Of a stretch of DNA of 64,000 bases, positions 4,204 to 50,660 are shown one piece after another; positions within the stretch are counted from its first letter, which is position 1, and each line of letters starts with the position of its first letter. The DNA lies in contig OX638351.1 of assembly GCA_951813565.1 (NCBI GenBank), positions 2,400,001-2,464,000 on the forward strand. The letters run 5' to 3'. Under the pieces are notes generated by a model. The model ran no database searches. It saw only the letters and a list, made by a program, of their open reading frames with translations, and was not told where the DNA came from. Source of the DNA: an uncultured Poribacteria bacterium. GTDB lineage: Bacteria; Poribacteria; WGA-4E; WGA-3G. The translations under genes and the position numbers were made by a program.

Positions 4204-4459
4204 ACGACTTGTGCCAGTTAACATTTTGTTTTGTTGGTTTTCACATATATTTGCCTTTGTGCTATAAACATATCGTCCCTACCAAATCAACGCCAAATGC
4301 GCGTGTGGCATTTGGCGGGACTAAAGAGTGCTCGTCCAATCATTTTCTATAAACATATCGTCCCTACGGGACTGAAGAACATATAAATATATGATAATGA
4401 CTTACAAACATTTCTTTTGTGAAATAAAGTTCTACAAATGGTTATTTAGCACAACTCGT
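4204..4459. mobile_element. MITE with IS982-like AC...GT ends and a 7-bp target duplication
   Basis: Imperfect TIR ACGACTTGTGC / GCACAACTCGT. TAGTATA flanks both sides (4197-4203, 4460-4466). Contains two CTATAAACATATCGTCCCTAC-GGGACT REP copies. Confidence 0.75.
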
Positions 4460-4506
4460 TAGTATAGGAACATGGTTAAAATAGTTGTAACTAACCGATA
4501 ACCGAT

Positions 4507-6042
4507 ATGAAACACATCTATCTAACAATCCTATTATTTCCCTTCGTTACGATATTGGTTTTGCCGACTGTGACCTACGCAGAAAAAAATGGAAATAAAA
4601 CGCATTGGAATCAATTTCGTGGCCCAAACGGAAGCGGTGTGATAAAAACTGCCAATGTTCCTATCAACTTTGGTCCCGACATAAACATCCTATGGAAAAA
4701 GAAAATGGAAGGAGGACAGTCCTCTCCTGTTATTTGGGGCAACCGCATTTTTGTCACGACTTTTTCGCCCGAAAACAGAGATCAACTTACAGTCGTTTGT
4801 CTTGATCGGCAGAATGGAAGCATCTTGTGGCGTAAATCGGTTAGTACCCGAAAAAACGCACAGTATTTTCCGTTGCTAAACGGTCCCGCTTCACCCACAC
4901 CAGCAGCTGACCACAAACACGTTTACGCTTACTTCGGCACCTACGGTATCCTCTGCTATACCCATGGTGGAGACAAGGTTTGGGAACGTCAAATTGACCC
5001 ACCTGTGAGTCAATACGGAATGTCTGTCTCACCGATACTGTATAAAGATACGGTTATCCTCGTTTTAGACGACAACAGGGGAAATTCTCGACTTCTCGCT
5101 ATGAATCGAGACACAGGTAACACCGTCTGGGAACAACCGCGTCTCTTCTTTCAAGCGGGCTGGTCCACCCCGATGCTCTGGCAGCATGAATTTCGTGATG
5201 AACTTGTTGTGCTGGGATATAAGAAGTTGGCTTCCTACAACCCTGTGAACGGTGAAGAATTATGGTGGGCTGGCGGATTTTCTGTTGAAACCATTGGTAT
5301 CCCTGTCGTAGGGGAAGGGCTTCTTTTTGTAAGTGACGCTGCTGCAGGTGGGCGCGGTGAAACCGAATGGGATGCTGAGGCATCATGGAAAATTACACTT
5401 GAAGATTTTGATAAGAACAAAGACAACAAGATACAACGCGAAGAAATGGCAAAAGGCTTTAGAATCCCTTTGCGAAGCGAATTGGAGAAACATGAACTCG
5501 GTTCTGCATATCCGATTGGGCCTCGACAGGTTGGTGGTTGGTTCAGGCATTTGGATAAAGACAAAGACGGCGAACTGAGCAAAACAGACTGGCTGGAACT
5601 TATGTCCGAATTTGCTATGGAGAGCCAGCCAACGCTCATTGCAATAAAACCGGGTGCGGAAGGAAACGCTCGACCGCTGAACGTGGCGTGGGAAATCAAT
5701 AGTGGCATACCTGAAATACCTTCGCCACTTTATTGTCAGGGGAAAGTTTATCTGCTGCGAAAAGGAGGCATTCTGACATGTATTCAGGCAGCAGACGGCA
5801 AACAGCTTTTTCGTGAACGCATTGGGGCAAGGGGACAGTATATTGCCTCACCTATCGCCGCAGGGAATAAACTGATCGCGGCATCACAACGAGGCATGGT
5901 CACGGTGATTCAAATCGGAGATACACTTGAGGTCCTTGCAAGGAACAACTTCGGAGAAGAGATTGTCGCGACACCAGCAATCGCGGAAAATACAATATAC
6001 CTGCGAACAGCCAATCACCTATACGCCATTGGTAAATATTAA
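4507..6042 (+). CDS. Secreted PQQ-binding-like (BamB-type) beta-propeller with inserted EF-hands
   Basis: Signal peptide, WNQFRGPNGSG, repeated SSPV/W motifs, EF-hand loops DKNKDNKIQREE and DKDKDGELSKTD. Confidence 0.85.
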   Translation: MKHIYLTILLFPFVTILVLPTVTYAEKNGNKTHWNQFRGPNGSGVIKTANVPINFGPDINILWKKKMEGGQSSPVIWGNRIFVTTFSPENRDQLTVVCLDRQNGSILWRKSVSTRKNAQYFPLLNGPASPTPAADHKHVYAYFGTYGILCYTHGGDKVWERQIDPPVSQYGMSVSPILYKDTVILVLDDNRGNSRLLAMNRDTGNTVWEQPRLFFQAGWSTPMLWQHEFRDELVVLGYKKLASYNPVNGEELWWAGGFSVETIGIPVVGEGLLFVSDAAAGGRGETEWDAEASWKITLEDFDKNKDNKIQREEMAKGFRIPLRSELEKHELGSAYPIGPRQVGGWFRHLDKDKDGELSKTDWLELMSEFAMESQPTLIAIKPGAEGNARPLNVAWEINSGIPEIPSPLYCQGKVYLLRKGGILTCIQAADGKQLFRERIGARGQYIASPIAAGNKLIAASQRGMVTVIQIGDTLEVLARNNFGEEIVATPAIAENTIYLRTANHLYAIGKY

Positions 6043-6257
6043 TCCTAATTGTTCGATGGCATTTTTCAGAATTATGCAACCATTTCTCTCCCTACAGGCG
6101 TCACTATATTATGATATGTCTTACGCAAATAATTAGAATCGGAGTGCCTTTAATTTACACCAATATTGCGTAAGTCAATTATAATCATAAGAGTCAAAGA
6201 TGTTAACTGCTACATTGAAGAAACTAAGAACCAATAACTAATTAAAAGGGAATAAAT

Positions 6258-7277
6258 ATGCAAACACCACGACACATTGACCAAATGGATGCCGATGACG
6301 TTGCTGCAATTGACGAACTACGCGACGTCTACGACCAACTAAAGAAAGCACTTGCCAAGATCATCATTGGTCAGGAGCAAGTCATTGAAAATTTATCGAT
6401 TTGTCTGTTTTCACAAGGGCACGCGCTATTGATGGGCGTCCCTGGCTTGGCAAAAACGCTTTTGGTGAGCCGGTTCGCTGAAACCATGGCGTTGTCGTTT
6501 AGCCGAATCCAATTCACACCCGATCTTATGCCGATGGACATCACCGGAACAGATATTCTTCAAGAAATACCGGGGGGTAGACGTGAGTTTGAGTTTGTAA
6601 AAGGCCCGCTGTTTGCCAACCTCATCCTCGCGGACGAGATTAACCGTGCCCCTTCAAAAACACAAGCAGCAATGCTTGAGGCAATGCAGGAATACAAGAT
6701 CACGGTAATCGGCAGGACCTACCAGTTAGCACCACCGTTCTTTGTATTAGCAACGCAAAACCCGATTGAGCAGGAAGGGACATATCCCTTACCAGAAGCA
6801 CAATTAGACCGATTCATGTTCAGAATTGAGGTAGACTATCCTGAGCGATCTGAAGAAATCGAAATCGCCCGAACGACAACTGGCATGTCCCTTCCAACGT
6901 TAGAACACGTTTTGACGGGTGATCGTGTCATAGCATTCCAAAACCTTGTTCGGCGCGTTCCAGTATCTGAACACATCTATGAATTCGCTGTTGACTTAGC
7001 ACGCAGCACACGACCGAAAGGCGACGCAGCACCTGATTGGCTTAAACCCCTTGTCGCTTGGGGTGCTGGCCCACGGGCTGTCCAATACTTAATTCTCGGT
7101 GCTAAGGCACGCGCTGCACTCAGCGGTAGTTATATGGCTCGACTTGAAGATGTGGTCGCTGTAGCAAACCCTGTCCTTGCGCACCGTGTCATCACATCGT
7201 TTGCTGCTGAGTCTGAAAACATTACCAGTCAAGATATCGTTGAACGTCTCGTAGGAGAACTCTCCGAACAAGGGTAA
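6258..7277 (+). CDS. moxR: MoxR family AAA+ ATPase
   Basis: GVPGLAKT Walker A, RIQFTPDLMP, LADEINRA, ATQNPIEQEGTYPLPEAQLDRF. Confidence 0.95.
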   Translation: MQTPRHIDQMDADDVAAIDELRDVYDQLKKALAKIIIGQEQVIENLSICLFSQGHALLMGVPGLAKTLLVSRFAETMALSFSRIQFTPDLMPMDITGTDILQEIPGGRREFEFVKGPLFANLILADEINRAPSKTQAAMLEAMQEYKITVIGRTYQLAPPFFVLATQNPIEQEGTYPLPEAQLDRFMFRIEVDYPERSEEIEIARTTTGMSLPTLEHVLTGDRVIAFQNLVRRVPVSEHIYEFAVDLARSTRPKGDAAPDWLKPLVAWGAGPRAVQYLILGAKARAALSGSYMARLEDVVAVANPVLAHRVITSFAAESENITSQDIVERLVGELSEQG

Positions 7278-7280
7278 AAT

Positions 7281-8186: not shown

Positions 8187-8404
8187 GACTTTTGGCTATC
8201 AGCAATTGACAAAATATAATGTGCGTATGGACTAAAAATCCAAAGAGGCGCAATGAATTGCGCGACTACAAACGCCGTAAATCTAAAGAAAAACGTTCAC
8301 TTATTTATATGCGTCACTATTATGCAACCATTAAAGTAAATGCTAACCGCTTTACTGAAAAAATGAGAACCAATGGCTGATTGCCGACAGCCAAAAAACC
8401 AACT

Positions 8405-10420: not shown

Positions 10421-10517
10421 GGTATAATTTTGAATATGTCTTGTAGGAGTGCCCTCCAGGTCGCGACCCTAATACATCATAATATTCAAACAGTGTTTAT
10501 TTCTTAAGGAGCATCAA

Positions 10518-13500
10518 ATGAATATTGATACAATTTTTACCGTAAAAAATGAACATCTTAGTCAATTTGATCAAAAAACATCAGTTGAGTTCTTTCAGCA
10601 GCTGCTTTGGGCAGAAGCACGAAGACTTGGAGTGGAAATTAGCAAGATTACTGTTTCTAGTTGGGTTAATAATCCTGACGGTGGCGTTGATGCTAATGTT
10701 GATGACGCTCAAATTAAAGGGGGACAAGGTTTAATTAGGCAGGGAAAAACAAGCTATCAGATTAAAGCTGGAGAAACGTTTAAACCGTGGCAAAAGTCAG
10801 TTATCAAGAAGGAACTTTTTGGCACGAAAACACCAAATAGGCAGAATCTTGGAGAGAGTATTCGAAAGTGCCTTGATGGTGATGGAGTCTACATTTTGGT
10901 ATGCACTGGAATTGATCCTACTGAATTCAATCGAGGAAAAATCATCCCGAACATCAAGGATTACCTAAAGCAGTGTGGTTATTCAAATCCCAAAGTAGAG
11001 GTGTTTACTCAGAATACTCTCAGAGGATTCCTTGAGGTGTTCCCATCATTAGCATTGTGGGTCAATGGGAATGATCGAGGATTTTTCCAAACCCATCAGA
11101 GTTGGTCTGAAGATGCGACTATGCGAGTTCCATTTTTCCCCGGCCAATCACAGAATAAATTAATTACTGAAATCCAAAAAGAATTGCGGGAAAAGCATAA
11201 CACAGTTCACGTGCGAGTGTTGGGGGAACCCGGTATTGGTAAAACGAAGCTCGTTTTAGAAGCAACGAAGGTTGATGATTTATCTCCACTTGTTGTTTAC
11301 TGTACTGCCTCTCAATTCTTAGATAGTGTTTTACTGAATGAAATTCTCCGAGACGATAACTCTTTCTCAGTTCTGCTAATAATAGATGAATGTAATCCCG
11401 ACAATAGATCATATTTCTGGAATAAACTGAAACATCGTGGTTCAAGGATTAAATTGATCACTATCTATAATGACTATGAGGAAAAATCTGGAGATATTAA
11501 CTACTATGATGCCCCACCGCTGGATAATGAACAGATTTGTAGCATTGTTCAGAGTTATACTAATATATCCAATGCTGATGCTAATAGATGGGCTGGACTC
11601 TGTAGCGGCTTACCAGAGGTTGCGCACATGATCGGTACGAATTTGAATTCTCATCAAGAAAATCTACTTGCTCCCCTGAGCACAGTCAATTTCTGGGAAC
11701 GATGTATTTTCGGAGGCGAGGACCCAACAATACCAGATGTAGCGGACCGTTGGCCGGTACTTCGTTATTTAGCACTCTTTAAACAATTTGGCTTTAAAGG
11801 TAATGTTTCCGAAGAATTCAGTGCAATTGCAGAAATTGTGGAGAATGCTTTCCCGTCGATTACTCAACAAAGATTCAAAAAAGTTGTTTTAGACCTGAAA
11901 AAACGTGGTACCCTAAAAGGTGACTATACACTCCGCATTACTCCAAAAGTCCTACATATCAAGTTATGGTTAGAGTGGTGGGAAAATTACTATGCTGAAG
12001 ATTCTGATCTTGTGGAGTTAACACGAGGCTTTACACCAAACTTGTTCGATTGGTTCTGTGAGATGTTTAAATATGCCGCTGAGTCGGAAGAAGCATCAAG
12101 GATTGTCAAGCAGCTCCTTGGACCACATGGGCCATTTCAATCAGACACTTCGTTGAGAAATCTTAATAACAAATTCTTTTTAGCACTAACTGAAGCAGAT
12201 CCAGAATCTGCTTTAAAGTGCTTAGTGCGAACAATCGGTACTTGGGATAAAGAAACTCTTTTAGAATTTACTAATGGTCGGAGATCGGTGATATGGGCTC
12301 TTGAAAAAATTGCTATATGGCGAAAATTGTTCCCTAATGCAGCAAGGTTGCTCCTTGCACTCGGTGAAGCAGAAAATGAAAGAACATCGAACAATGCAAG
12401 TGGAGTATTTGCTGAACTTTTCTCATTAGGACCAGGTGCGGTAGCTCCTACAGAAGCATCCCCAGTAGAACGTTTACTTGTCTTAAAGGAAGCATTTGAG
12501 TCTGAATCAAAAGAACGGCGAAGCTTGGCATTAAAAGCATGCGATAAAGGTTTAATATCCGGCCATTTCTCACGGATGTCAGGAGCAGAATATCAAGGAT
12601 TACGCAAGGAACCAAATTTTTGGTTTCCCAAAACACACGCTCAGTGGTCGAAAGCCTACCGTTCCGTATGGCAACTCTTGTTTGAGCAATTGGAACATTT
12701 ACCTGAAGATGAACGTAAACAGGCTGCGGGGATTCTGCTTGGTCATGCAGGATCACTTGCAAGAAAGCACAATTTAGGCAATATGGTTGTAAACACAGTC
12801 GAAACAATTAGTAAAAATGGATATGTAAACGAAAAACAGATTATTGAGACAATTAGCCGAATTTTGTTTCATGATGACTCCTATGTTGAAAACAAAGGAC
12901 TACCAAAGAAAATTAGACAGCGTTTTGAAAAACTTCAAGACGAATTGATTGGTTCCGACTTTTCTTCGTTAATGCAACGCTATGTTGGGATGGATATGGT
13001 TGAAGACCTTCTTATTGAAGACAGAGATAAAGTTGATAAAGTTAAACCCTACCTTGAATCACTAGCGAAGCAATCTGTAGATAATCCTGCACTTTTGAAA
13101 TCGGAATTATCATGGCTTGTGACTACCGAAGCAAAGAATGGAAACAAGTTTGGGTATGAACTTGGACAGAGAGATAAATCGCTTTCACTTCTACCAATGC
13201 TTCTTGATGCCCAACGAAACACAAAGGATAATATCAGCACTTATTTTTTGGGTGGTTATTTCCATACGATCTTTGATACTGATTCAGCACTATGGGAGCA
13301 ACAACTTGACGTACTCTGTGAAGATATCACTCTTAACACAATAGTACCATCGCTTACGCACTATTCGGGTCTGACTGATCAAGCAGGACTTCGAATTCTC
13401 AACATGGCAAAAAACGATATTATTAATATCTACGATTTTGAATTATTCAAATACCAAAATGCAATTACCAGTCTATCCGAAAATATTTTTGAAGCTTGGA

Positions 13501-14336
13501 TAGAATTTTTATTGGATATTACCGACAGGTCAGCTGTACATATTGCATTGAAGTTATTCCACAGTTACTACATTTTTCGAAAACCAGAATCTACTTTACC
13601 AAATGAACTCACATTCCGCCTCCTTTCACATCCAGAATTATTTAAAGAATCCGATAATTATCAGTATGATACAATGACAGATTTTTATTGGACAGAAACA
13701 GCGAAAGGTTTTCTAAACCTCTATCCAAAAAAGGCTTTAGAACTAGTACAATGCATGCTGGTGCCCTTTGGTAGCGACAGAACAATCTTTGATTCTTTCT
13801 CACAAAGTTGCTCGTTTCTCACTGAAACAACTAAAAAATATCCCGCGGAGGTTTGGGAGTACGTTAGTGAATATTTGGACAGTCGTGATAATTTTTCGAG
13901 AACTATATCTTTAGCAAATTGGCTTAGAGAAGCAGATCTTTCGGAAACAGAAAAAGAAAAAGGAGCATTAACCTTAATTCCACGCGAAAAAATATGGGAA
14001 TGGGTTGATCAAGACGTGGAAAATCGCGCGTGGTATCTTGCCAGTGAATTTGTTCCAAAGACCCTTTTAATAGAAGACTGGTGTGGTTCGTTAGCCCGTG
14101 ATCTTCTTGTTAGGTATGGAGATCAAGAAGATGTTAGAAGCACATTGATATCAAATTATTCAACCGAAGGATTCTGGGGACCTGCTAGTTTATACTATGG
14201 AGAGAAACTACAAAAATTAGTTGACATCCAGAACAACGATAATGACGAAAAAGTCAATTATTGGATTAACGAATTTGTACCCTTTCTTGAAGAGCAAATT
14301 GAACATTCAAAGATACGCGAAGAAAGAATGTCTTAA
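10518..14336 (+). CDS. STAND-class NTPase with N-terminal PD-(D/E)xK nuclease-like domain (Avs-like candidate defence protein)
   Basis: PDGGVDA...YQIKAG nuclease-like motif, Walker A GEPGIGKT, Walker B LLIIDE, GLP motif, long helical C-terminus. Visibly more AT-rich than its neighbours. Confidence 0.7.
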   Translation: MNIDTIFTVKNEHLSQFDQKTSVEFFQQLLWAEARRLGVEISKITVSSWVNNPDGGVDANVDDAQIKGGQGLIRQGKTSYQIKAGETFKPWQKSVIKKELFGTKTPNRQNLGESIRKCLDGDGVYILVCTGIDPTEFNRGKIIPNIKDYLKQCGYSNPKVEVFTQNTLRGFLEVFPSLALWVNGNDRGFFQTHQSWSEDATMRVPFFPGQSQNKLITEIQKELREKHNTVHVRVLGEPGIGKTKLVLEATKVDDLSPLVVYCTASQFLDSVLLNEILRDDNSFSVLLIIDECNPDNRSYFWNKLKHRGSRIKLITIYNDYEEKSGDINYYDAPPLDNEQICSIVQSYTNISNADANRWAGLCSGLPEVAHMIGTNLNSHQENLLAPLSTVNFWERCIFGGEDPTIPDVADRWPVLRYLALFKQFGFKGNVSEEFSAIAEIVENAFPSITQQRFKKVVLDLKKRGTLKGDYTLRITPKVLHIKLWLEWWENYYAEDSDLVELTRGFTPNLFDWFCEMFKYAAESEEASRIVKQLLGPHGPFQSDTSLRNLNNKFFLALTEADPESALKCLVRTIGTWDKETLLEFTNGRRSVIWALEKIAIWRKLFPNAARLLLALGEAENERTSNNASGVFAELFSLGPGAVAPTEASPVERLLVLKEAFESESKERRSLALKACDKGLISGHFSRMSGAEYQGLRKEPNFWFPKTHAQWSKAYRSVWQLLFEQLEHLPEDERKQAAGILLGHAGSLARKHNLGNMVVNTVETISKNGYVNEKQIIETISRILFHDDSYVENKGLPKKIRQRFEKLQDELIGSDFSSLMQRYVGMDMVEDLLIEDRDKVDKVKPYLESLAKQSVDNPALLKSELSWLVTTEAKNGNKFGYELGQRDKSLSLLPMLLDAQRNTKDNISTYFLGGYFHTIFDTDSALWEQQLDVLCEDITLNTIVPSLTHYSGLTDQAGLRILNMAKNDIINIYDFELFKYQNAITSLSENIFEAWIEFLLDITDRSAVHIALKLFHSYYIFRKPESTLPNELTFRLLSHPELFKESDNYQYDTMTDFYWTETAKGFLNLYPKKALELVQCMLVPFGSDRTIFDSFSQSCSFLTETTKKYPAEVWEYVSEYLDSRDNFSRTISLANWLREADLSETEKEKGALTLIPREKIWEWVDQDVENRAWYLASEFVPKTLLIEDWCGSLARDLLVRYGDQEDVRSTLISNYSTEGFWGPASLYYGEKLQKLVDIQNNDNDEKVNYWINEFVPFLEEQIEHSKIREERMS

Positions 14337-14360
14337 CATACTCGGAGATACATAACAGAA

Positions 14361-20156: not shown

Positions 20157-23100
20157 ATGAACCAAACACAATCAAAAGAAAACGCGGTGAACCTACCGCC
20201 GCGCATGAAAAAAGCATTAGAACAATACCGAAAACGTGTATGGATAATCAAAATTGCCGAAGGCACTTTAGCAGCAATCTTTGGTCTCATCATTTCGTAT
20301 CTCATCGTGTTTAGTTTAGACCGATTGTTTGATACGGCTACGTTCTTACGTGCGCTCATTTTGTTAGTCGGGATGGTGGGCATGGTGATTTTCCTGCCGT
20401 TAAAGTATTACAATTGGGTATGGCGAAATAGAACGTTAGATGGGATAGCTCGGTTGTTGCAGCATAAGTTTCCACGTTTTGGTGATCACGTGCTTGGCAT
20501 CGTGGAACTTGCGTCGGAGAGGTCAGATCAGTCATCAAGCCCTGCGTTGGTTGCAGCAGCGATGCGTCAAGTTGATGAAGAAGTAGCAAAACACAATCTT
20601 GCAGATGCTGTGCCTAATCCTCGCCATCGTCGTTGGGCGTTGGCAGTAGGTTTGCCTTTGGTGTTGGTCATTATCGGGGTACTTGTGATTCCCGCTACGA
20701 CTCGGAATACCCTCGCTCGATGGTTAACCCCGTGGCGAGACGTGGAGCGATATACCTTTGCGCAGTTGGAAGGTAAAACGGATCGACGCGTGGTCGCTTA
20801 TGCGGAACCCTTTGATGTTGAAGCACGTCTAAAAGACGAATCCCCATGGAAACCCGAGTCGGGCGAGGCACGCTACGCAGACCAGACACCTATAGTTGCA
20901 GAACGAGAAGGAGAAACCTACAAGTTTGAATTGCCACCACAAACTGAGGAAGGAAAAGTCAATCTTAAAGTAGGAGATGCGCGGCGTTCCATTCCAGTTG
21001 AACCTAAATTACGTCCAGCGTTGAAAGAACTTATTGCCAAAGTTCAGCTGCCCGATTATCTACAACATCAAGAGCCACGTATAGATGATGTGCGCGGCGG
21101 AATAGTGAACTTGGTGAAAGGAAGCACCGCCACCTTGGAAGCCACTACGACACGTGAACTATCAGAAGCAACATTAAACAATCGTCCTCAAAAGGTGGAA
21201 GGTGCGCGCGTTATTACCGAACCAATATCAGTAGAGACAACGACAGAGATGCAGTTAACATGGCGGGATCGTTTTGGACTCGCTGTAAGTGAACCACAAG
21301 TGCTGCAGTTTGAGGCACAAGACGACACTGTGCCAACGGTCGCTATAACTAAACTAAAAAATAATCAAGTTGTGCTTTCTACGGAAGTGCTCACATTTGA
21401 AATTCAGGCAGGGGATGACTTCGGTGTAAAGCGAATCGGTTTGGAATGGGAAGGTATCAAAAATCCTATCCAAAACCCTAATCCTGCTATTGGTGAGAAA
21501 ACTGTGTCGTCAGGTTCTCCGACTTCAGAGGCACTCACTGTCCCTGCCACATTTTCTGTTGAACGTGAGAATATAAAACCACAGAGTCTACGTTTGCGTG
21601 CTTTTGCAGAGGATTATTTTCCTAACCGCGAGCGTGTTCAGTCTCCCCAGATTGTGTTACATGTATTGACGCCTGCCGAACACTTTAAGTGGTTAATTGG
21701 ACAGATGCAGCTATGGGCAGGCGCGGCAAAGGATGTCCACGACAAAGAATTGCAGTTACATCAAACCAACCTTGAACTTCAAGACCTGTCTCCTATGGAA
21801 CTTGACGATCCAGCACAACGTAAAAAACTACAGAATCAAGCCTCTGCAGAACGCGCTAACGCAGCAAAACTTGATAGCCTGATTCAAAGCGGTACGGAAT
21901 TACTGCAGGAAGCAGCGAAAAACAGTGAATTTGATGGAGGTCAACTTGAATCGTGGGCTGAAATGCTCAAACAGTTGGAGGAGATAGCAGGGAAGAAAAT
22001 GCCTTCTGTTGCGAATTTACTTGCACAAGCGTCCGAAGCACCCGGTCAGAGTAGTAATCAGCAGCCGACAGCCGGCAGTCAACAAGATGCTCCACCTTCA
22101 ACAACCGATAGTCAGCGATCAACACCTAACAATCAGTCAAATAGCAAACCCGGTAAATCGGAAAGCGATGTTGAGAGATATGGTCCCGATAGTAAGAACA
22201 TTCCTAATACAGCAGACGAAGAAACGCCGGATGATCCAAACAAGTCCGGTGATTCTGTCGGCGCGGATCGGAGCAAACCAGCAGAAGGTAAGCCAAGTTT
22301 TACACCTGCGAATCCCACACCGAGCGTTTCCGATGTTGAATCAGGATTTAACAAGGCTGATAAACCTCCAGAGGGACAACCTTCACAAATTGTTGGTGGA
22401 CTCGGAATTCCTACCACTATCCTGAAGGGAAGTGGTAGAAACGATCAAGCCCAGGATCAAGACACCGAAACGCCTCAAGCGTCAGAACTTGTCTTAGAGG
22501 CAGTCGAAGAGCAAAAGGAATTGTTGGATGCGTTTGCCAAATTATCAGATGAAATGAAAAAGCTGCTTGTCGGTTTTGAAAACAGCACATTCGTTAAACG
22601 TTTGAAAGCAGCATCTCGAAAGCAGATTGACATTGCGATAGACCTTAATGATCTGGACAGTTTTGGTTTACCAAACAGAGAAGCGTTCAATCAGAGGGAA
22701 CTAAAACGGTTAGCAACGTTTGAAGAAACAGAGGCGAAAAACGTAACGACTATCATACAAGATATGGCAGCATATACTGACCGGCGTCCTAATGCAAACT
22801 ATTTACGTGTCCTTGCAGAAATGGAGGACGCTTCTGTGTCCAGCCAAATGCGAGATATTGTCAGATCAATTAGCAGGAATTTTGTTGGTCAATCATCCAT
22901 TGATGCGGAATTTTGGGCGGATACACTGGATCGGTGGGCAGAACAATTGGTAGATCCTCTACCTGAAATGCCTCCCGGACAAGGGGGTATGATGGAATTG
23001 CCCAACCTACCACCAGAAATAATTGTGAAAGTTTTACGCATCATCAATCGCGAAATTCAATTGCGGGAAGAAACGCGTGAGGTTGAGCAGGCAAAGAACG

Positions 23101-23597
23101 CTCTCACTGCCGACAAATACTATGAGCGAAGCGAAGCATTAAGCGATACACAATACGAAATCGCAGAAGATACCCACGAAGTAGCGCGGGAAATAAGTTT
23201 GTTGCCCAATGCTAACACAGCACTGATCCGGCAGCAACTCATGAAAGTTTCAAAGGCAGCTGAAGTTATGGATGAGGCAGAATCAATTCTTGCAACACCC
23301 GACACCGGTCCCAAAGCAATTGCAGCCATTTCGGAAGTGATCGAAATTTTGCTTGAAACGCAACGCATGCCAAATGTTCCCGGTGGCGGAGGCGGAGGAA
23401 ATGCACCGGGCGGTGGAGGACAAGCATTAGCGGCAATTGTTTCCGCACTAAGGCTTATGGGAATTGGCGATGACAGTGGAGAAGCCTTTATTGAAAAACG
23501 GTCACCTAAACAGGCAACAGGGAAAGCAGGACGCGTATTACCCGAAGAATTTCGTCAAGGGTTAGACGCTTATTTTAATGCAATAGAAGGACAGTAG
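20157..23597 (+). CDS. Large membrane-anchored coiled-coil protein (DUF4175-like) of MoxR clusters
   Basis: Three N-terminal TMs, AGDDFGV motif, long helical and low-complexity region, C-terminal LPEEFRQGLDAYFNAI. Confidence 0.75.
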   Translation: MNQTQSKENAVNLPPRMKKALEQYRKRVWIIKIAEGTLAAIFGLIISYLIVFSLDRLFDTATFLRALILLVGMVGMVIFLPLKYYNWVWRNRTLDGIARLLQHKFPRFGDHVLGIVELASERSDQSSSPALVAAAMRQVDEEVAKHNLADAVPNPRHRRWALAVGLPLVLVIIGVLVIPATTRNTLARWLTPWRDVERYTFAQLEGKTDRRVVAYAEPFDVEARLKDESPWKPESGEARYADQTPIVAEREGETYKFELPPQTEEGKVNLKVGDARRSIPVEPKLRPALKELIAKVQLPDYLQHQEPRIDDVRGGIVNLVKGSTATLEATTTRELSEATLNNRPQKVEGARVITEPISVETTTEMQLTWRDRFGLAVSEPQVLQFEAQDDTVPTVAITKLKNNQVVLSTEVLTFEIQAGDDFGVKRIGLEWEGIKNPIQNPNPAIGEKTVSSGSPTSEALTVPATFSVERENIKPQSLRLRAFAEDYFPNRERVQSPQIVLHVLTPAEHFKWLIGQMQLWAGAAKDVHDKELQLHQTNLELQDLSPMELDDPAQRKKLQNQASAERANAAKLDSLIQSGTELLQEAAKNSEFDGGQLESWAEMLKQLEEIAGKKMPSVANLLAQASEAPGQSSNQQPTAGSQQDAPPSTTDSQRSTPNNQSNSKPGKSESDVERYGPDSKNIPNTADEETPDDPNKSGDSVGADRSKPAEGKPSFTPANPTPSVSDVESGFNKADKPPEGQPSQIVGGLGIPTTILKGSGRNDQAQDQDTETPQASELVLEAVEEQKELLDAFAKLSDEMKKLLVGFENSTFVKRLKAASRKQIDIAIDLNDLDSFGLPNREAFNQRELKRLATFEETEAKNVTTIIQDMAAYTDRRPNANYLRVLAEMEDASVSSQMRDIVRSISRNFVGQSSIDAEFWADTLDRWAEQLVDPLPEMPPGQGGMMELPNLPPEIIVKVLRIINREIQLREETREVEQAKNALTADKYYERSEALSDTQYEIAEDTHEVAREISLLPNANTALIRQQLMKVSKAAEVMDEAESILATPDTGPKAIAAISEVIEILLETQRMPNVPGGGGGGNAPGGGGQALAAIVSALRLMGIGDDSGEAFIEKRSPKQATGKAGRVLPEEFRQGLDAYFNAIEGQ

Positions 23598-27375: not shown

Positions 27376-27471
27376 TTGACTATCGGCAGCCAGAAAGAGG
27401 AATTTTTGAGATAACATTCCTTTCTGAAAGTCGGCAACCTAATGTTGGCTGCTATAAGAAGGAGAAATATA

Positions 27472-34397: not shown

Positions 34398-34536
34398 AAA
34401 AGACTTTTAAGTTAAACTTTTTATGGTAGATTTTAGAATTACTTGGACACTCTGCACCCGCGAGATGAATCAACGCCGAATGCGCGTGGTAGAATAAGCG
34501 TTTGGTTTTCTGCATAATCTGTCACTAACTACTACC

Positions 34537-37399: not shown

Positions 37400-37761
37400 G
37401 GGTGTGTAAATATTTGGTTACATAGGTTCAATTTGCAATGATTACGCGGCGTTTTCCACTGTAGAGCGGGGTCCCTGTGCCCCATGCCGTCAATTTAAGG
37501 ATATACCCTCTTGTGGGAGGGGTTTTCAACCCCGATAAAACATATAAATCGGGCTTATAAAGCCCTCCCACAAGAGGCAATCTGGTAATTGTGTGCTTAA
37601 ATTGACGCCTATGGGCGGGGTCCCTGTGCCCCGCCACTGTGCAGGACGTGCCATGCAACAGGCAGGCACCAAATCAACGGTCCGAATGCCTTTTGGCATT
37701 CCCCGGAGACCCGCCCCTTCAATAGGAGTTGTGCGGATTTCTACAAAAACTTTACACACCC
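37400..37761. mobile_element. IS256-like MITE (second copy) with a 9-bp target duplication
   Basis: GGGTGTGTAAA...TTTACACACCC, flanked by TCAGAGTAT at 37391-37399 and 37762-37770. Confidence 0.88.
37483..37613. mobile_element. IS4-like MITE nested in a REP
   Basis: CATGCCGTCAATTTAAG ... CTTAAATTGACGCCTATG; 18-bp direct repeat (A/G)GCGGGGTCCCTGTGCCC. Confidence 0.78.
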
Positions 37762-41485: not shown

Positions 41486-41530
41486 AAATAATACCTCTTT
41501 CATAGGGTTTTTAGAACTCAAAGATTGTGT

Positions 41531-43265: not shown

Positions 43266-43392
43266 CAGATACCTCCGCAAGAATTGAGCGCAAAAATTTA
43301 GTGGAATATTAGGTTAGATTAAGTTAGAATTGTAGTGGAAACATAAGATTATATCAAGTAAAAACAGTTCGAATATAAATAAGGAGAAATAA

Positions 43393-44619: not shown

Positions 44620-44622
44620 GCA

Positions 44623-45369
44623 ATGAATCTGAAGAATAAAATAGCAATTGTGACAGGCGCGGGACAAGGCATCGGTAAAGCAATTGCCCTCAGACTCGCG
44701 AATGCGGGTGCAGATATCGCAATCATGGATTTAAACCTATCAGCTGCTGAGTCTGTTGCCAAGGAGATAGAAAATCTTGGTCGGCAAGCACTTCCTATTC
44801 AAGCAGATGTGTCGCAGTCTACCGATGTTAATACTGCTGTAGACACAGTGCTTTCCGAATTTGGACGCATTGATATTCTTGTGAACAATGCTGGAATTGC
44901 CGGGAGAACGTTGCCACTAACTGATTTAGATGAATCAGATTGGGACACAGTGATAGGGGTGAACTTGACAGGTGTATTCCTCTGTTGTAAAGCGGTCATT
45001 GGCACGATGATTGCGCAGGATTACGGTAGAATAGTAAATATCGCCTCAATTGCTGGTAAGGAGGGCAACCCGACACTTATACCATATTCTGTGTCTAAGG
45101 CAGGAGTTATCTGCTTGACGAAAGCACTTGCGAAAGAGGTAACAGACTATAATATTCGTGTGAATGCTGTATCGCCCGCGGTTATAGGAACTCCTATTTT
45201 AGAGGGCATGGCACAGTCCACGATTGACTATATGGTAAGCAAGATTCCACTGGGGCGAGTTGGAAAACCTGAAGAAGTTGCGGCTGTCGTAAATTTCTTA
45301 GCCTCAGATGAGGCGAGTTTTGTGACGGGACAGTGTTATGATGTGAGCGGCGGTAGGGCTACTTATTGA
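44623..45369 (+). CDS. SDR family oxidoreductase (FabG-like)
   Basis: TGAGQGIG, NNAG, YSVSK. Confidence 0.92.
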   Translation: MNLKNKIAIVTGAGQGIGKAIALRLANAGADIAIMDLNLSAAESVAKEIENLGRQALPIQADVSQSTDVNTAVDTVLSEFGRIDILVNNAGIAGRTLPLTDLDESDWDTVIGVNLTGVFLCCKAVIGTMIAQDYGRIVNIASIAGKEGNPTLIPYSVSKAGVICLTKALAKEVTDYNIRVNAVSPAVIGTPILEGMAQSTIDYMVSKIPLGRVGKPEEVAAVVNFLASDEASFVTGQCYDVSGGRATY

Positions 45370-45655
45370 GTTCGTAGGTTGGGAAGAATACAGCGAGACC
45401 TAACATGTATTTTTCTTGTAGGAGGGGTTTTTAACCCCGATTGTTTCTGCATCTCGGATTGGTATGGATTTTTTATCTGAACCAGGATTGTCATGATTAT
45501 AGAATTTCCAAGATTATACATTTTTCTGAACAATAAATGTTTCTTTTGGTAGAAACGCGTTTTGTAGTCGCGCAATTCATTGCCAAATCAAGACAAAATG
45601 TGATTTTGACATTTGTCTTCTCTAAATCAATGCTATCGTATCGGGGTTGAAACCC

Positions 45656-45808
45656 GCAGCATGCCATACGGGGAATGCCATAAGGCATTCGGACCCGGTG
45701 AATGACTAAAGACGAATGCGCTTGGTAGAATACGCTTTTGGTATTCTACATGATTCGCCATGATTCATACCGTTGATTTCTTGATTTGGCGCATGCTGCG
45801 TTGATTCA
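45656..45808 (-). repeat. 153-bp composite of nested micro-hairpin elements inserted in a REP
   Basis: Near-identical to 50414-50566. Removing it restores GGGGTTGAAACCC-CTCCCACAA. Confidence 0.85.
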
Positions 45809-45894
45809 CTCCCACAAAGAGAGGAAAGGGCGACATACCAAGGAAAGAGAAGGCGGGCACAAAGACCCGCCCTATAAATCAAACAAAGTTACGA

Positions 45895-47286
45895 TTACTC
45901 TGCAATACAGTAGAGATACTGACTTCCACGCAAGTATAATTCTGAACCAACAATTGCTGGTGATGCGTTGAAACTGTCCTCTAAGTAATTTTGTGCCAGT
46001 ATTTCAAACTTAGGTCCGTGTTGAACAACTGCCACAGTGCCATTTCGACTTACGACATAGACGCGATCAGCAGCGCCAACAATTGACGCGTAGATGCCTC
46101 TTACGCCACCTATTCTAATAGGTCCATACAGTAATTCACCTGATATTTTGTCAACAGCGGAGATAATGTCGTTCCCTTTGAGGAAATATAGAATATTCCC
46201 GTGCAGGAGTGGAGATGGTACATAAGGTGTGTCTTCATTGTATTCCCATGCAATGGCTTCCGTGGATGCGGTAATGTCACCTTCGGCATTCGCAAGATTA
46301 ACCGCTTGCAATGCGGCACCTCTGAAACCACTGATGAGATAAACTAATCCATCGGCAGCTATAGGTGTGGGTATAACGTTTCCTGTCATACCGCCACATT
46401 CCCATAACACTTCGCCAGTTTCTAAATCATAACTACGCGATCTATTTGTAGCAGTAACAATTACCTGTGCTTTTCCACCGTGTTCCACAACAATAGGCGA
46501 TGTCCACGTGGTACGTTCGTCTCTATCCATTTTCCACAGTTCATCACCAGTTCGCTTATCCAGAGCAGTGATGAAGGAGGGACCTTCGTGGTCTTGCAGG
46601 ATCACAATTGTATTACCGTGAATGATAGGGCAGCTGCCTTCACCGAAGGTATTCCTTTTCTGCATTTTCCCGATGTCTTTTTCCCACTTGAGATTTCCAG
46701 CCATGTCCAAGCAATAAAGTCCACGAGAACCGAAATAGGCATAGATGTGTTCCCCATCGGTTATTGGAGAATTGGATGCGAAGCTGGCAGTTTCATGGAT
46801 ACCTTCATGCGGAGGCGTTTCTCGGAGAGTCTTTTGCCACAAAACACTTCCATCACTCCGATTGAGCGCAATCAAATCAAATTTATACGAAGGAAAAACT
46901 TCGTTTCTCCTTCTGCCACGTCTTCTTCGTCGAGAGTCTTCAGGTGGATTTTCAGCTTCTGTGTTCTGAGTTTGTGTTTTGGGCATCTCGCCTTTAATCG
47001 CAGTCTGAATGAAGATTCTATCTTCCCAGACAATAGGTGTGGCATGTCCCATACCGGGAATGCGAACTTTCCAGCGGATATTTTCAGTTTCACTCCATGT
47101 TGTGGGCGGATTTGCGTTAACAGCGGCACCGGTGGCATGCGGACCGCGCCAATGAGGCCAGTTGTTCTCAAAATTAAGGTTCTGTTCAGACTTAGAGGCA
47201 TGTTGATCAGCAATGGTCTGCAATGTATACAGAGCAAATATCGCTAAAACACATACGAATATCGTCAAGAATGTAGTTTTTTTCAT
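45895..47286 (-). CDS. Secreted PQQ-binding-like beta-propeller
   Basis: Signal peptide, NWPHWRGP, GHATPIVW, YVPSPL; ends LYCIAE. Confidence 0.88.
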   Translation of the reverse strand: MKKTTFLTIFVCVLAIFALYTLQTIADQHASKSEQNLNFENNWPHWRGPHATGAAVNANPPTTWSETENIRWKVRIPGMGHATPIVWEDRIFIQTAIKGEMPKTQTQNTEAENPPEDSRRRRRGRRRNEVFPSYKFDLIALNRSDGSVLWQKTLRETPPHEGIHETASFASNSPITDGEHIYAYFGSRGLYCLDMAGNLKWEKDIGKMQKRNTFGEGSCPIIHGNTIVILQDHEGPSFITALDKRTGDELWKMDRDERTTWTSPIVVEHGGKAQVIVTATNRSRSYDLETGEVLWECGGMTGNVIPTPIAADGLVYLISGFRGAALQAVNLANAEGDITASTEAIAWEYNEDTPYVPSPLLHGNILYFLKGNDIISAVDKISGELLYGPIRIGGVRGIYASIVGAADRVYVVSRNGTVAVVQHGPKFEILAQNYLEDSFNASPAIVGSELYLRGSQYLYCIAE

Positions 47287-47337
47287 AATAATATCTTCCT
47301 TATTAGTTGAGCCAGTTGTAGTTGTATATGTGATTAT

Positions 47338-48711
47338 CAAGCGTTCCGTTCAAAACCCAATGCTTTAGCTTTGGGATGTAGACACCGCTAACGTCTCCAT
47401 TTTTTTGTTGATTTTTCCTTGCGTTTGTGGTATACTATCCCCAGCATTACAGCGGTGGATTTCACCTCTCGCTTGAGAGTGCCACCGCACCATTTGAAAG
47501 TGGTATTGTAATGCGAACCTACAAATACAAGGGACAAAAACATAAACGCAATCGTCATCTGCAAAAAGACCTGCGTCCCATTGCGCATGTCCACAACCAT
47601 TTTGTTGCGTTGTTGCAACGTCACTATCGCATCTACGGACATTGCGAAGATTACAAACGACCCAATGCATTTAGGATGATTAAACATCTGACGAAACTGA
47701 AACGACTTGCTAAATATCAACACTGGACAATCCCATATTCTTGGTGTTTGCAAGAATGTATCCAACGCGTTGACAGAGGTTGGAAAAACTTCTTTGAAGG
47801 TAGAGCCAAGCGTCCGCCTAAATTTAGAAGTCGGCATAAATATAAATCTATGACTTTTGATGGTAGCCAAGTCAAAATAGAAACTTTTGACAAAACAGAT
47901 GGATGCCCCGTTGCGAAAATCCGTATCAATAGAAGGTGGTATCGCTGCTGGTATAGCAGACCTATTGAAGGCAACATCAAACGGGTTACCGTTAAGAAAG
48001 ACTTTGTAGGGGATTGGTATATCACTATCACAACAGACGCAGAAGGACTTGAGCCTGCACCTAAGACTGGTAGGACAGCAGGGTTTGATTTTGGACTCAA
48101 GGATTTTCTCACCTGTTCCGATGGCACGAAATATCAATCTCCTGAATTCTATAAATCTACTGCTAAACTGATAAAACGTGCGAGTCGTGCGTTGTCTCGG
48201 AAGCAGAAAGGCAGTAATAATCGCGAGCGTGCGAGGAAAGACCTTGCACGGGTACACAGGAAAATTAATCGGCAGCGGGAAGACCATCATTGGAAACTCG
48301 TGCTTGAACTTGTCCGAAAGTTTGATGTCTGTTTCTTCGAAAACTTGAACCTTGACGGCATGAAGCGCCTCTGGGGACGCAAAGTTTCGGACTACGGCTT
48401 TGCAGATTTCAGGCTGAAAATCAAATGGCAAGCACAAAAACGATGCAAGCACGTTGTGCAGATTGACAGATGGACACCCACAAGCAAAGTTTGCCACGCC
48501 TGCGGACAAATCCATAAGTTCTTTAATTTGAGTGTGCGCGATTGGTGTTGTCATCACTGCAAAATCTCTCATGACCGTGATATAAACGCTGCTATAAACA
48601 TTCATAAGGTTGGGACGTCAACCTTTTCAGGAGGAGACGTAACACCTGCCTCGGCAGGCAGTCTCTGATGATAGAAGAATCCCATGCCTTTAGGCTTGGG
48701 GAGTATGTCAA
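47338..48711 (+). mobile_element. IS200/IS605-family element, tnpB only (IS1341-like)
   Basis: The left end follows (G)ATTAT and has hairpin CCCAATGCTTTAGCTTTGGG. The right end has hairpin CCCATGCCTTTAGGCTTGGG and then GTCAA. No target duplication and no tnpA. Confidence 0.88.
47511..48668 (+). CDS. tnpB: RNA-guided endonuclease TnpB
   Basis: RuvC-I GFDFGLK, RuvC-II FENL, zinc finger CHACG...CHHC, RuvC-III DRDINAAINI. All three acidic residues are present. Confidence 0.93.
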   Translation: MRTYKYKGQKHKRNRHLQKDLRPIAHVHNHFVALLQRHYRIYGHCEDYKRPNAFRMIKHLTKLKRLAKYQHWTIPYSWCLQECIQRVDRGWKNFFEGRAKRPPKFRSRHKYKSMTFDGSQVKIETFDKTDGCPVAKIRINRRWYRCWYSRPIEGNIKRVTVKKDFVGDWYITITTDAEGLEPAPKTGRTAGFDFGLKDFLTCSDGTKYQSPEFYKSTAKLIKRASRALSRKQKGSNNRERARKDLARVHRKINRQREDHHWKLVLELVRKFDVCFFENLNLDGMKRLWGRKVSDYGFADFRLKIKWQAQKRCKHVVQIDRWTPTSKVCHACGQIHKFFNLSVRDWCCHHCKISHDRDINAAINIHKVGTSTFSGGDVTPASAGSL

Positions 48712-48730
48712 TCTGCTATACAATATAGAT
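48520..48730 (+). ncRNA. Predicted omega/reRNA (tnpB 3' end + right end + flank-derived guide)
   Basis: Inferred from established TnpB biology. The 5' boundary is approximate; the guide would start at 48712 (TCTGCTATACAATATAG). Confidence 0.5.
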
Positions 48731-50084
48731 GTTTAGTTCCACGCAGATATAGTTCTGATCCAACAATTGCAGGTGATGCGTTGAAACTATCGTCAAGGTG
48801 ATTCAGAGCAATTACTTCAAGTGCAGGTCCGTCTTTTAAAACTGCAACATTTCCGTCTCGACTTGCAATATATACACGACCTGCCGCGCCAACAATAGAT
48901 GCATATACATTGGATACACCTTTAACCCTTTCAGGTCCAAATAACACTTCTCCACTATTTCTGTCAATAGCTGTAAGTAGATTCCCATTTCTTTTCAAGA
49001 AATATATTGTATTTCCACTCAATAGCGGTGAAGGCACATAAGGTGTGTCACGGTCGTAATACCAATCAACTGCATCAGTCCCAGTAATATCGCCAGAAGC
49101 AAGTTCTAAGTTAATGGATTGTAGTGAACTTCCACCATGTCCACTTATCACATATATATGGCCATCTTTATGCATAGGAGATGGAATCACATTCCGCGTC
49201 ATACCATCACATTCCCAAACCAAATCGCCATTGGCTAAATCGTAACTACGTGTTCGGTTTGTTGCTGGAACGATCACTTGAGAGATGCCGTTGTAATCTA
49301 CAACAATAGGAGATGTCCATGTAGTAGGTTCATCCCTATCCATTCGCCAAAGTTCGTCACCTATGTGTTTATCCAAGGCAGTAATAAAGGATTGTCCTTG
49401 ATGGTCCTGTAGCACAATAATGGCATCACCATATATCACTGGGCAGCTTCCTTCACCGAAAGTACCCGCTTTACGCATTTGTCCAATATCTTTTTCCCAT
49501 ATCAGATTCCCTTTGAAATCCAAACAGTAGAGACCACGAGAACCGAAATAAGCGTAAATGTGTTTTCCATCGGTTGTTGGTGAGTTGGATGCGAAACTTG
49601 AATGACCGTGCATACCCTCGTGAGGAGCAGTTTCCCGTAGCGTTTTTTCCCACAAGACACTCCCATCACTTCGTTTCAGCACAAGGAGATTAAACTTATA
49701 TGGTGGTATGGTTCTATTCCTGTTTCTTCTATTACGTCTTCTTTCAGACTGTGATTCTTGCGATATATTTTCATCTTCCACACTCTCAGTTTCTGGCATC
49801 TCACCTTTAATGGCTGCCTGGACAAATATCATATCTTCCCAAATGATCGGCGTAGCATGACCTAAACCGGGAATGCGAACTTTCCAGCGGATATTTTCTG
49901 TTTCACTCCATGTTGTGGGTGGATTAGCATTTACTGCCATCCCTGTTGAATGAGGACCTCGCCAGTGATGCCAGTTTTTTTCAAAATTGAGTGTCTGTTC
50001 AGTATCAACCGTGGTTTTTGAACTGCACGCGACGAACATCGCGAGAGCACAGATACATATTGTCAAGAATGCCAATTTTTTCAT
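48708..50084 (-). CDS. PQQ-binding-like beta-propeller lipoprotein (paralog of 45895-47286)
   Basis: MKKLAF...FVAC lipobox, NWHHWRGP. The stop codon lies inside the IS right end. Confidence 0.88.
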   Translation of the reverse strand: MKKLAFLTICICALAMFVACSSKTTVDTEQTLNFEKNWHHWRGPHSTGMAVNANPPTTWSETENIRWKVRIPGLGHATPIIWEDMIFVQAAIKGEMPETESVEDENISQESQSERRRNRRNRNRTIPPYKFNLLVLKRSDGSVLWEKTLRETAPHEGMHGHSSFASNSPTTDGKHIYAYFGSRGLYCLDFKGNLIWEKDIGQMRKAGTFGEGSCPVIYGDAIIVLQDHQGQSFITALDKHIGDELWRMDRDEPTTWTSPIVVDYNGISQVIVPATNRTRSYDLANGDLVWECDGMTRNVIPSPMHKDGHIYVISGHGGSSLQSINLELASGDITGTDAVDWYYDRDTPYVPSPLLSGNTIYFLKRNGNLLTAIDRNSGEVLFGPERVKGVSNVYASIVGAAGRVYIASRDGNVAVLKDGPALEVIALNHLDDSFNASPAIVGSELYLRGTKHLYCIAD

Positions 50085-50146
50085 TATATGAATTCCTTTC
50101 ATGTTTGTTATGGTGATCCGTAGGTTGGGTAGAGCGCAGCGAAACC

Positions 50147-50660
50147 CATAAATCAACGGTATGAATGCCTGAATCAACGCCAAATGCGCTTTTTGGCATT
50201 TGGCGGGTTTTCAACCCCGATTTCTTCTCTATGAGAAGTATTCAACTATGAGAAATCAATATATCGGGCTTCCAAAGCCCTCCCACAAGAAAAAAATCAG
50301 CAACTTAAGTATATACCTTCTTGTGGGAGTGAATCAACGCCAAATGCGCTTTTTGGCATTTATCGGGTTTTCAACCCCGCTGAATGCCTACACGCGCATT
50401 CAGCGTTGATTTGGCAGCATGCCGGACGGGGAATGCCATAAGGCATTCGGACCCGGTGAATGACTAAAGACGAATGCGCTTGGTAGAATACGCTTTTGGT
50501 ATTCTACATGATTCGCCATGATTCATACCTTTGATTTCTTGATTTGGCGCATGCTGCGTTGATTTGGATTTAACAGTTTGAGTCTCACAAAATCGGGCGG
50601 ACAAGGTCTCCCTCCCACAAGAGACAATCTGGTAATTATGTGCTTAAGTTGACACCTATG
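50147..50660. mobile_element. IS4-like MITE (third copy), inflated by REPs and micro-hairpins
   Basis: Right TIR CTTAAGTTGACACCTATG; interrupted left end (CATA...CAACTTAAG); 20-bp direct repeat GGGTAGAGCGCAG(C/G)GAAACC at 50127-50146 and 50661-50680. Confidence 0.72.

What the first reader, a model, noticed from the sequence alone, without database searches (positions are those of the whole stretch)
4283..50566. Family of ~35-bp self-nesting leader+hairpin micro-elements that invade REPs without target duplication
Seen in sequence: units made of a fixed leader (CA/TG)AATCAAC plus a hairpin, at 4283-4316, 37670-37704, 50170-50204, 50330-50364 and 50379-50413 (minus strand). Composites occur at 34466-34523, 45656-45808 and 50414-50566. 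Removing a unit restores a REP that is intact elsewhere in this window: CCCTAC^GGGACT (intact copy at ~4362) and GTGGGAG^GGGTTTT (intact copy at ~37513). At the junctions I could reconstruct there is no duplication, and the insertion lies 5' of GG. The stems vary with compensatory changes (GCCAAATGC/GCATTTGGC, GCTGAATGC/GCATTCAGC, GCAGCATGC/GCATGCTGC, GTAGAATAC/GTATTCTAC), so structure rather than sequence is conserved. Inference: these are very small mobile units moved in trans, perhaps by a single-strand HUH (TnpA/RAYT-type) enzyme or through an RNA intermediate. The nearest precedent I know is the short dispersed repeats of Nostoc; I do not recognise this family.
Basis: partly seen in the sequence, partly recalled or inferred. 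Interest (0 to 1): 0.82.

Follow-up and report, generated by a model that had tools for sequence, protein, structure and literature searches.

The report
Tiny hairpin insertion units in Poribacteria
A sponge-symbiont bacterium carries hundreds of copies of a 33-35-base piece of DNA (a fixed tag plus a hairpin) that has inserted itself into other repeats, into itself and occasionally into genes, joined cleanly at one end and loosely at the other, by machinery that is still unidentified.

Summary
Real, and found before by this scan in other windows of the same genome. G000 holds 442 canonical units at 282 loci. A covariance model finds them in 80 of 92 other genomes of one Poribacteria family and in 0 of 48 genomes of other families.
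Excising two window units restores repeats found intact elsewhere. 'Precise, no duplication' holds for only one junction class. In a second class the unit brings its own terminal G and 1-4 target bases are lost; the tag-side base is coupled to the leader variant. So the hairpin end is exact and the tag end looks microhomology-joined.
Also found here: an in-frame insertion in a gene, empty in an orthologue; and a conserved hairpin downstream of an efflux gene, homologous to the unit plus the tag's complement, in 16 of 29 orthologous loci.
Many copies share flanks and probably hitch-hiked on RAYT-type REPs. Reverse transcriptase, Cas1 and IS110 do not track the units. Best guess: one-ended strand transfer by a RAYT-type HUH enzyme plus repair (0.4). 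Closest precedent: Nostoc SDRs.

The parts
4283..4316 (+). Canonical unit (2 variable nt + 7-nt tag + 9-bp stem, 7-nt loop), class 1: exact insertion at a C^G step of a palindromic repeat
   Evidence: 58.7 bits; excised junction 2 exact copies
4348..4378 (+). Unfilled copy of the same host repeat (empty allele)
   Evidence: used as 0-mismatch empty allele for other filled copies
34466..34523 (+). Composite: tagged unit whose 3' arm is interrupted by a sister-type hairpin; between two PhyH genes
   Evidence: 16 bits; bridged by an independent contig, 0 differences; excision finds no intact host
37509..37536 (+). Unfilled REP copy (empty allele of the host at 50321-50379)
   Evidence: (family D9)
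37670..37704 (+). Variant unit with a shorter stem, inserted in a REP
   Evidence: 17 bits; 0 exact, 6 near copies of the excised junction
45583..45617 (+).
   Evidence: family D11; 18 bits
45656..45808 (-). Nested composite (outer unit opened in its loop by further units and sister-type hairpins), 98% identical to 50414-50564, so copied as a block
   Evidence: (D5)
47334..48711 (+). Not part of the family: element with 4 further copies and IS200/IS605-type ends; tnpB-only (IS1341-like) reading is inferred
   Evidence: the ORF I scanned (47388-48605, minus strand) had no Pfam hit; the plus-strand ORF was not scanned
50149..50169 (+). Remnant of an outer unit (tag + 5' arm) at the foot of a REP; orthologous spacers in G048 and G012 show the unfilled REP foot
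50170..50204 (+). Canonical unit (8-nt loop) nested in the outer unit
   Evidence: 50.4 bits; excision gives no intact copy
50330..50364 (+). Canonical unit, exact insertion at one foot of the REP hairpin
   Evidence: 43.7 bits; 11 exact copies of the excised junction
50379..50413 (-). Canonical unit, last member of a minus-strand tandem array at the other foot of the same REP
   Evidence: (47.8 bits)
50414..50566 (-). Nested composite, first member of that array
   Evidence: (D5)

Best explanation
Shown: a non-coding 33-35-nt unit (variable dinucleotide, invariant 7-nt tag, 10-bp stem closed by a C-G pair, 7-8-nt loop) inserts in one polarity with its hairpin end next to a G/C-rich dinucleotide (mostly GG), without duplication. 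Counting the closing G as part of the unit, every reconstructed event replaces at least one target base: one G in class 1 (net +34, looks like exact insertion at C^G) and 1-4 other bases in class 2 (net +33 or less). The GG target is regenerated, so arrays grow at that end. Inferred: primary insertions number dozens, and most copies were then spread inside REPs and larger repeats. Inferred mechanism: a single-strand HUH nuclease of the RAYT type, already acting on these REPs, nicks target and donor and joins the hairpin end by one strand transfer; the tag end is then fixed by 1-2-nt microhomology annealing and host repair, which removes the target bases. The invariant unpaired tag is the likely recognition element. 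I put mobility at about 0.9 and this mechanism at about 0.4.
For: Asymmetric junctions: G follows the stem in 97 of 104 non-tandem clusters, then GG in 71 and CC in 8, against 4% background each. Class 2 pairs with 0-2 mismatches in 60 flanking nt lose 1-2 target bases; 75 of 176 clusters have an empty allele, and both classes recur among them. Unfilled copies of class-2 hosts have A, not G, at the replaced place in 308 of 366, 639 of 665 and 132 of 165 copies. Leader variant is coupled to the preceding base: 267 of 273, 143 of 154 and 13 of 13. Hosts are the REPs that flank RAYT genes in this genus; several host families are hit inside the GTAG tag. 86 of 104 clusters are repeat-flanked against 24 of 60 random intergenic positions. 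Genomes with a RAYT over cut-off have median 38 units (n=25) against 9 (n=15), p=0.0014 uncorrected. HUH chemistry (5'-phosphotyrosine, 3'-OH; cleavage after C, flexible in group 3) is from PMC8266576.
Against: No RAYT or TnpA gene has the unit as its cognate end: units near RAYT genes sit inside their REPs (output of 46 partly cut). G055 (187 units), G014 (75) and G023 (41) have no RAYT over cut-off. The correlation is confounded by kinship and by REP target supply. The unit lacks GTAG. Known RAYT and IS608 reactions are precise at both ends. Some insertions lie outside REPs (18 of 104 clusters, two in genes). No usable replication-strand bias (237 against 205; skew weak). No presence/absence polymorphism seen in 4 runs of the same species (contigs break at the repeats). 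Only one filled/empty pair is surely orthologous; 245 projected tests gave 9 alignments and 3 filled/empty pairs, two of which lie in multicopy repeats.
Confidence: 0.4

Rival explanations
1. No dedicated transposase: a nick or stalled fork at a REP hairpin leaves a 3' end that switches template onto an existing unit through 2-3-nt homology, copies it, and switches back at 1-2-nt homology (host polymerase template switching or gene conversion).
For: Microhomology coupling and small deletions; leader variants mirror stem-arm variants (by eye); loop inversion between G000 and G052 at the conserved hairpin and double-tag forms show template switching acts on these hairpins; insertions outside REPs.
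Against: Tract length is fixed at 33-35 nt and donor flanks are not carried along; the unpaired tag is invariant across a family, which points to a defined donor and a recognising factor. No Ku or AEP primase in G000 (controls rang).
Confidence: 0.27
2. An undescribed trans factor (not RAYT) recognises tag plus hairpin and cuts the fully paired double-tag hairpin after the closing G, in the manner of an integron integrase on a folded attC site.
For: The unit ends exactly where the double-tag hairpin would be cut after its G; the tag and its complement fit the attC core consensus at 6 of 7 positions (consensus recalled, compared by eye); the conserved full hairpin exists.
Against: G000 has one tyrosine-recombinase match (215-aa frame) and it was not characterised further; the stem lacks extrahelical bases and is far shorter than attC (recalled); targets do not resemble attI or secondary cores; a cassette should begin with the remainder of its core, and the unit does not.
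Confidence: 0.15
3. Target-primed reverse transcription of a short RNA (a trimmed terminator-type transcript end) at nicked REPs.
For: Precise primed end and loose far end fit this route; the homologous hairpin sits just downstream of a gene in most orthologues.
Against: Reverse transcriptase in only 18 of 40 genomes, none in G006 (364 units), G012, G048, G017, G049, G014; medians 26.5 against 35.5, p=0.85. G000's two are CRISPR-linked and a lone 511-aa one. Dominant unit variants differ from the local conserved hairpin.
Confidence: 0.1
4. Not mobile: local slippage or fragments of a larger IS end.
For: Tandem arrays and block copies explain many copies.
Against: The same unit sits in dozens of unrelated hosts and in genes; no gene flanked by units on both sides is a transposase by inspection (14 ORFs); IS605 ends in G000 differ.
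Confidence: 0.05

Closest known systems
Small dispersed repeats SDR1-8 of Nostoc (Elhai et al. 2008, Genome Res 18:1484)
   Same: Very small, apparently mobile repeats; precise insertion of SDR5 inside another repeat (HIP1) per a passage of PMC4390886; about 20 bp and possibly mobile per PMC2884548. Nesting, no duplication and unknown enzyme are recalled; the paper is not held.
   Different: Different phylum and larger size; fixed unpaired tag; GG/CC-adjacent polarity with a lossy second junction; sequence relationship to SDRs not tested.
GTAG-tagged REPs / REPINs with RAYT (TnpA-REP) (PMC8266576, PMC3116915, PMC3733652)
   Same: Short tag plus hairpin, extragenic, hundreds of copies, occasional in-frame gene insertions, lineage-restricted; the hosts here are such REPs.
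   Different: Tag is 7 nt and not GTAG or CGTC; single units, not doublets, insert; they parasitise REPs; no cognate RAYT flanked by them.
IS91-family one-ended transposition (IS801 miniature derivatives; PMC3189936)
   Same: One fixed end next to a short target motif and a less fixed far end; moved in trans by a HUH enzyme.
   Different: Smallest described there is 229 nt; no Y2 transposase match in G000 (but the control rang nowhere); target-base loss is not described in the passages read.
IS200/IS605 single-strand transposition (IS608, ISDra2)
   Same: Hairpin-dependent, strand-specific, no duplication, target motif retained for re-use.
   Different: Needs two hairpin ends and joins both precisely; G000's IS605-type ends are unrelated in sequence.

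Membership tests
REP (GTAG/CGTC-tagged) | Terminal GTAG or CGTC tetranucleotide before the stem | tested here: not met
   alignment A1: different invariant 7-nt tag
REP (GTAG/CGTC-tagged) | 20-50-nt palindrome, high copy, mostly extragenic | tested here: met
   442 units; 1 inside an ORF of 200 aa or more by the first test, 2 confirmed in conserved genes
REP (GTAG/CGTC-tagged) | Cognate RAYT gene flanked by the repeat | tested here: not met
   10 Y1 loci of G000 and 30 RAYT loci of the genus are flanked by other repeats; units appear inside those (part of 46 cut from view)
REPIN | Inverted doublet as the mobile unit | tested here: not met
   single units and head-to-tail arrays; 187 of 282 loci have one unit
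IS200/IS605 non-autonomous derivative | Left and right hairpin ends shared with a TnpA element | tested here: not met
   ends of five TnpA elements and the tnpB-type element differ
IS200/IS605 non-autonomous derivative | Precise insertion, no target loss | tested here: not met
   class 2 loses 1-4 nt
MITE | Terminal inverted repeats and target duplication | tested here: not met
   asymmetric unit; no duplication beyond a possible single C
IS110-mobilised element | IS110 recombinase in the genome | tested here: not met
   PF02371 absent from G000 (95% complete), control rang in 6 of 14
Nostoc SDR | Very small, inserts into other repeats without duplication | tested here: met
   definition partly recalled, partly from PMC4390886
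Nostoc SDR | Sequence or structure homology to SDR1-8 | not testable with these tools
   paper not held; no Rfam match in the window
Integron cassette / attC | IntI integrase, attC with L boxes and extrahelical bases | tested here: inconclusive
   one tyrosine-recombinase match, not classified; stem has no bulges
CRISPR spacer acquisition by-product | Cas1 present where units are abundant; repeat duplication | tested here: not met
   no Cas1 in G006, G048, G017; two in G001, which has 0 units by pattern
HUH substrate | Cleavage and strand transfer in vitro | not testable with these tools
   needs biochemistry

The most novel reading that the evidence does not exclude
A one-hairpin, 33-35-nt element that arose from a conserved gene-terminal hairpin by loss of the 3' part of its stem, so that the old paired arm became a recognition tag, and that is moved by a so far undescribed one-ended single-strand reaction (precise at the hairpin, microhomology-resolved at the tag), parasitising REPtrons and adding 11-residue peptides to genes.
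Probability: 0.2. Interest if true: 0.85.

Novelty: new variant of a known kind. Interest (0 to 1): 0.6.

Why it matters
How DNA pieces too small to carry two transposon ends or form a double-stranded circle can move (SDRs, single REPs) is an open question. This family gives many natural junctions with a clear asymmetry, candidate enzymes in the same genomes and a 35-mer substrate that can be tested directly in the published REP cleavage and strand-transfer assay. The conserved full hairpin offers a concrete origin or domestication case, and in-frame insertions show an effect on proteins.

Tried and rejected
Rfam: no match in the window. Element at window 47334-48711 as autonomous partner: unrelated ends. 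Genes flanked by units on both sides: 14 ORFs, none transposase-like by inspection. Reverse transcriptase, Cas1: do not track unit counts. IS110, Ku, AEP primase, Rep_trans: no match in G000, controls rang. IS91 Y2: no match but control silent, so uninformative. Replication-strand bias: skew too weak to read. Reads: no RNA holder listed; four runs laid, all contigs, broken at repeats, no clean presence/absence joint among the rows shown (many rows not shown). Orthologous empty sites: intergenic repeat clusters mostly turn over between species. The idea that class-2 hosts already had the extra G: G is a small minority in unfilled copies, though a rare pre-existing variant cannot be excluded for any single family. 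Terminator scan did not call the conserved hairpin, so 'terminator-like' rests on position and shape. Covariation counts are partly circular, because units were chosen for pairing, and palindrome correction can also produce them. Searches gave nothing useful. A collection-wide pattern scan outside the phylum was not done, so distribution beyond Poribacteria is open. Literature searches found no paper on this element; most subscription journals are not in the library. No supplements were opened.
Full report
Setting. The window is G000:C1:2400001-2464000 of a single-contig 5.43-Mb genome. The closest relatives of one of its RAYT proteins are Candidatus Poribacteria (64-74% identity), and four studies hold the stretch, two labelled sponge metagenome. 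The name Poribacteria first came from earlier notes. Eight notes and further ones describe the same family from other windows of this genome; I used them as leads only.

Observation. The listed stretches are present. Of 2358 genomic occurrences of the 7-nt tag, 417 are followed by a perfect stem of at least 7 bp, against 0.6-0.9% for seven control words. A relaxed definition gives 517 units, a canonical one 442 in 138 flank clusters, 104 non-tandem and 34 tandem, at 282 loci. The unit is two variable bases, the tag, a stem whose outermost pair is the last tag base with a following G, and a 7-8-nt loop. Six of 10 pairs show two-sided changes, but the set was chosen for pairing. In-silico excision restores a known repeat for 4283-4316 and 50330-50364, approximately for three more, and not for three nested or degenerate ones.

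Distribution. A degenerate pattern finds 0-401 copies per genome in 39 of 40 genus members. Model R1, built from 45 references, hits 80 of 92 other genomes of the family (36 of 36 in the genus) and 0 of 48 genomes of other families in the sample (strict filters). Outside the phylum was not searched.

Junctions. 35 of 104 clusters have an empty allele in G000 within 10 mismatches over 60 flanking bases; with relatives' DNA added, 75 of 176 (5 mismatches over 40). Two classes appear. Class 1: exact gain of 34-35 nt, mostly at a C^G step, including every tandem addition. Class 2: the unfilled host has A or T (most often the A of the REP's GTAG tag) before GG or CC; the filled copy has G there and has lost 1-4 bases. 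Pairs with 0, 1 and 2 flank mismatches show this (G000 1450980 against 1748664; 4020212 against 3124781; 1511075). In three class-2 host families the unfilled copies carry A at that place in 308 of 366, 639 of 665 and 132 of 165 cases. The leader variant follows the preceding base in 267 of 273, 143 of 154 and 13 of 13 units for three variants; other variants are looser (33 of 52, 26 of 45). These counts include block-copied units, so they overstate independent events. One reading covers both classes: the unit ends in G, the hairpin side is exact, at least one target base is always replaced, and the tag side is joined at 1-2 nt of homology. That reading is inference; a one-base ambiguity remains in class 1.

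Targets and spread. 86 of 104 clusters have repeated flanks, against 24 of 60 random intergenic positions. The hosts are the REPs that flank RAYT genes in this genus. The largest clusters hold 25, 23, 16, 14 and 11 copies with the same flanks, and 45656-45806 equals 50414-50564 at 98%, so much of the copy number is hitch-hiking. Intergenic clusters turn over between species: none of seven relatives aligned at 50110-50700 has the G000 arrays, and two aligned at 45370-45900 have a 56-nt spacer. Of 245 projected orthology tests over 2.4 Mb of G052 and G006, 9 aligned: 3 filled/empty, 5 shared filled, 1 false. Two of the three lie in multicopy repeats and may be paralogues. The third is clean: a 33-nt in-frame insertion near the start of a 253-aa membrane-protein gene (C1:1292617), shared by G000 and G006 and absent in G052. 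A second in-frame copy (C1:4444600) is shared with G052. Laying four runs showed the strain-level genes and bridged the 34466 composite, but no presence/absence joint.

A conserved homologue. Downstream of an efflux-type membrane-fusion gene (annotation by inspection; G000 C1:4309389-4309429) lies a long hairpin made of tag, stem and loop of the unit, continued by the full complement of the tag and A/T tracts. It scores 40 bits with R1 in G000 and hits in 16 of 29 orthologous loci from all main clades; related hairpins are visible in most others, and it is replaced by other repeats in G001, G005 and G007. The unit equals this hairpin cut after the G that pairs with the last tag base. It may be the progenitor or an old domesticated double-tag copy; similar double-tag forms in G000 can arise by deletion between opposed units. 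Direction is not resolved. A sister type, 122 of 487 hairpins without the upstream tag, mostly carries a related tail on the other side and inserts into stem arms.

Enzyme. G000 has five IS605-type TnpA and five RAYT-like Y1 matches, two reverse transcriptases, one tyrosine-recombinase match, two Cas1, and no IS110, Ku, AEP primase or Rep_trans match. Reverse transcriptase (18 of 40) and Cas1 (29 of 40) are missing from G006, G048 and G017, which are rich in units. RAYT over cut-off (25 of 40) goes with more units (median 38 against 9); on a 30-genome tree five sister contrasts point the same way by eye and G055 points against. Kinship and target supply confound this. I therefore rank one-ended RAYT-type strand transfer plus repair at 0.4, host template switching at 0.27, an unknown integrase-like factor at 0.15, retro-insertion at 0.1.

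Comparison and papers seen. PMC8266576: abstract, introduction and passages. PMC3116915, PMC3189936, PMC2884548, PMC4390886, PMC3733652, PMC11708052: passages. Elhai et al. 2008: not held; known from two citing passages and recall. attC and IS608 details beyond PMC8266576 are recalled. The unit works like an SDR or a single REP but fails the defining tests for REP, REPIN, MITE and IS605 derivatives. Searches found no description of it in the held library.

Verdict. Real; a new variant of the very small mobile repeats; mechanism unproven; interest 0.6.

Noticed in passing
window 47334-48711: 1.38-kb element with IS200/IS605-type ends and four further copies in G000 (91-92% identical); absent at the orthologous place in relatives. 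Probably tnpB-only; plus-strand ORF not scanned.
   Followed up: partly
L119:1507-1549 (G000 C1:4309389-4309429): Conserved long hairpin downstream of an efflux-type gene, homologous to the unit, with its loop inverted between G000 and G052.
   Followed up: yes
G000 C1:1292617 and C1:4444600: In-frame 11-residue insertions of the unit near the starts of two genes; the first is empty in G052.
   Followed up: yes
window 45725-45757, 50483-50515: Sister hairpin type without the upstream tag and with a related tail downstream; about 120 copies, inserting into stem arms of other units.
   Followed up: partly
L033 (G000 C1:3988991-3992061): Stand-alone 465-aa reverse transcriptase beside cas1 and CRISPR repeats, with a long insertion splitting the RT domain; a unit-bearing repeat sits just upstream of cas1. 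Similar split RTs occur in at least seven other genus members.
   Followed up: no
L034 (G000 C1:811749-813284): Lone 511-aa reverse transcriptase of unknown class.
   Followed up: no
L037-L066: At least four RAYT clades in the genus, each with its own REP or tandem-repeat type; some are flanked by long tandem repeats, not GTAG hairpins.
   Followed up: partly
window 44743-44797: Cluster of ten substitutions in 55 bases shared by three runs from other studies, inside a short-chain dehydrogenase gene: a likely recombined patch.
   Followed up: no
window 10518-14336, 20157-23597, 27442-29871: Large ORFs (1272, 1146, 809 aa) with no Pfam match.
   Followed up: no
G001: 97% complete genus member with 0 units by pattern (4 weak model hits), no Y1 match and no conserved hairpin at the efflux locus; G+C make-up unlike the others.
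   Followed up: partly
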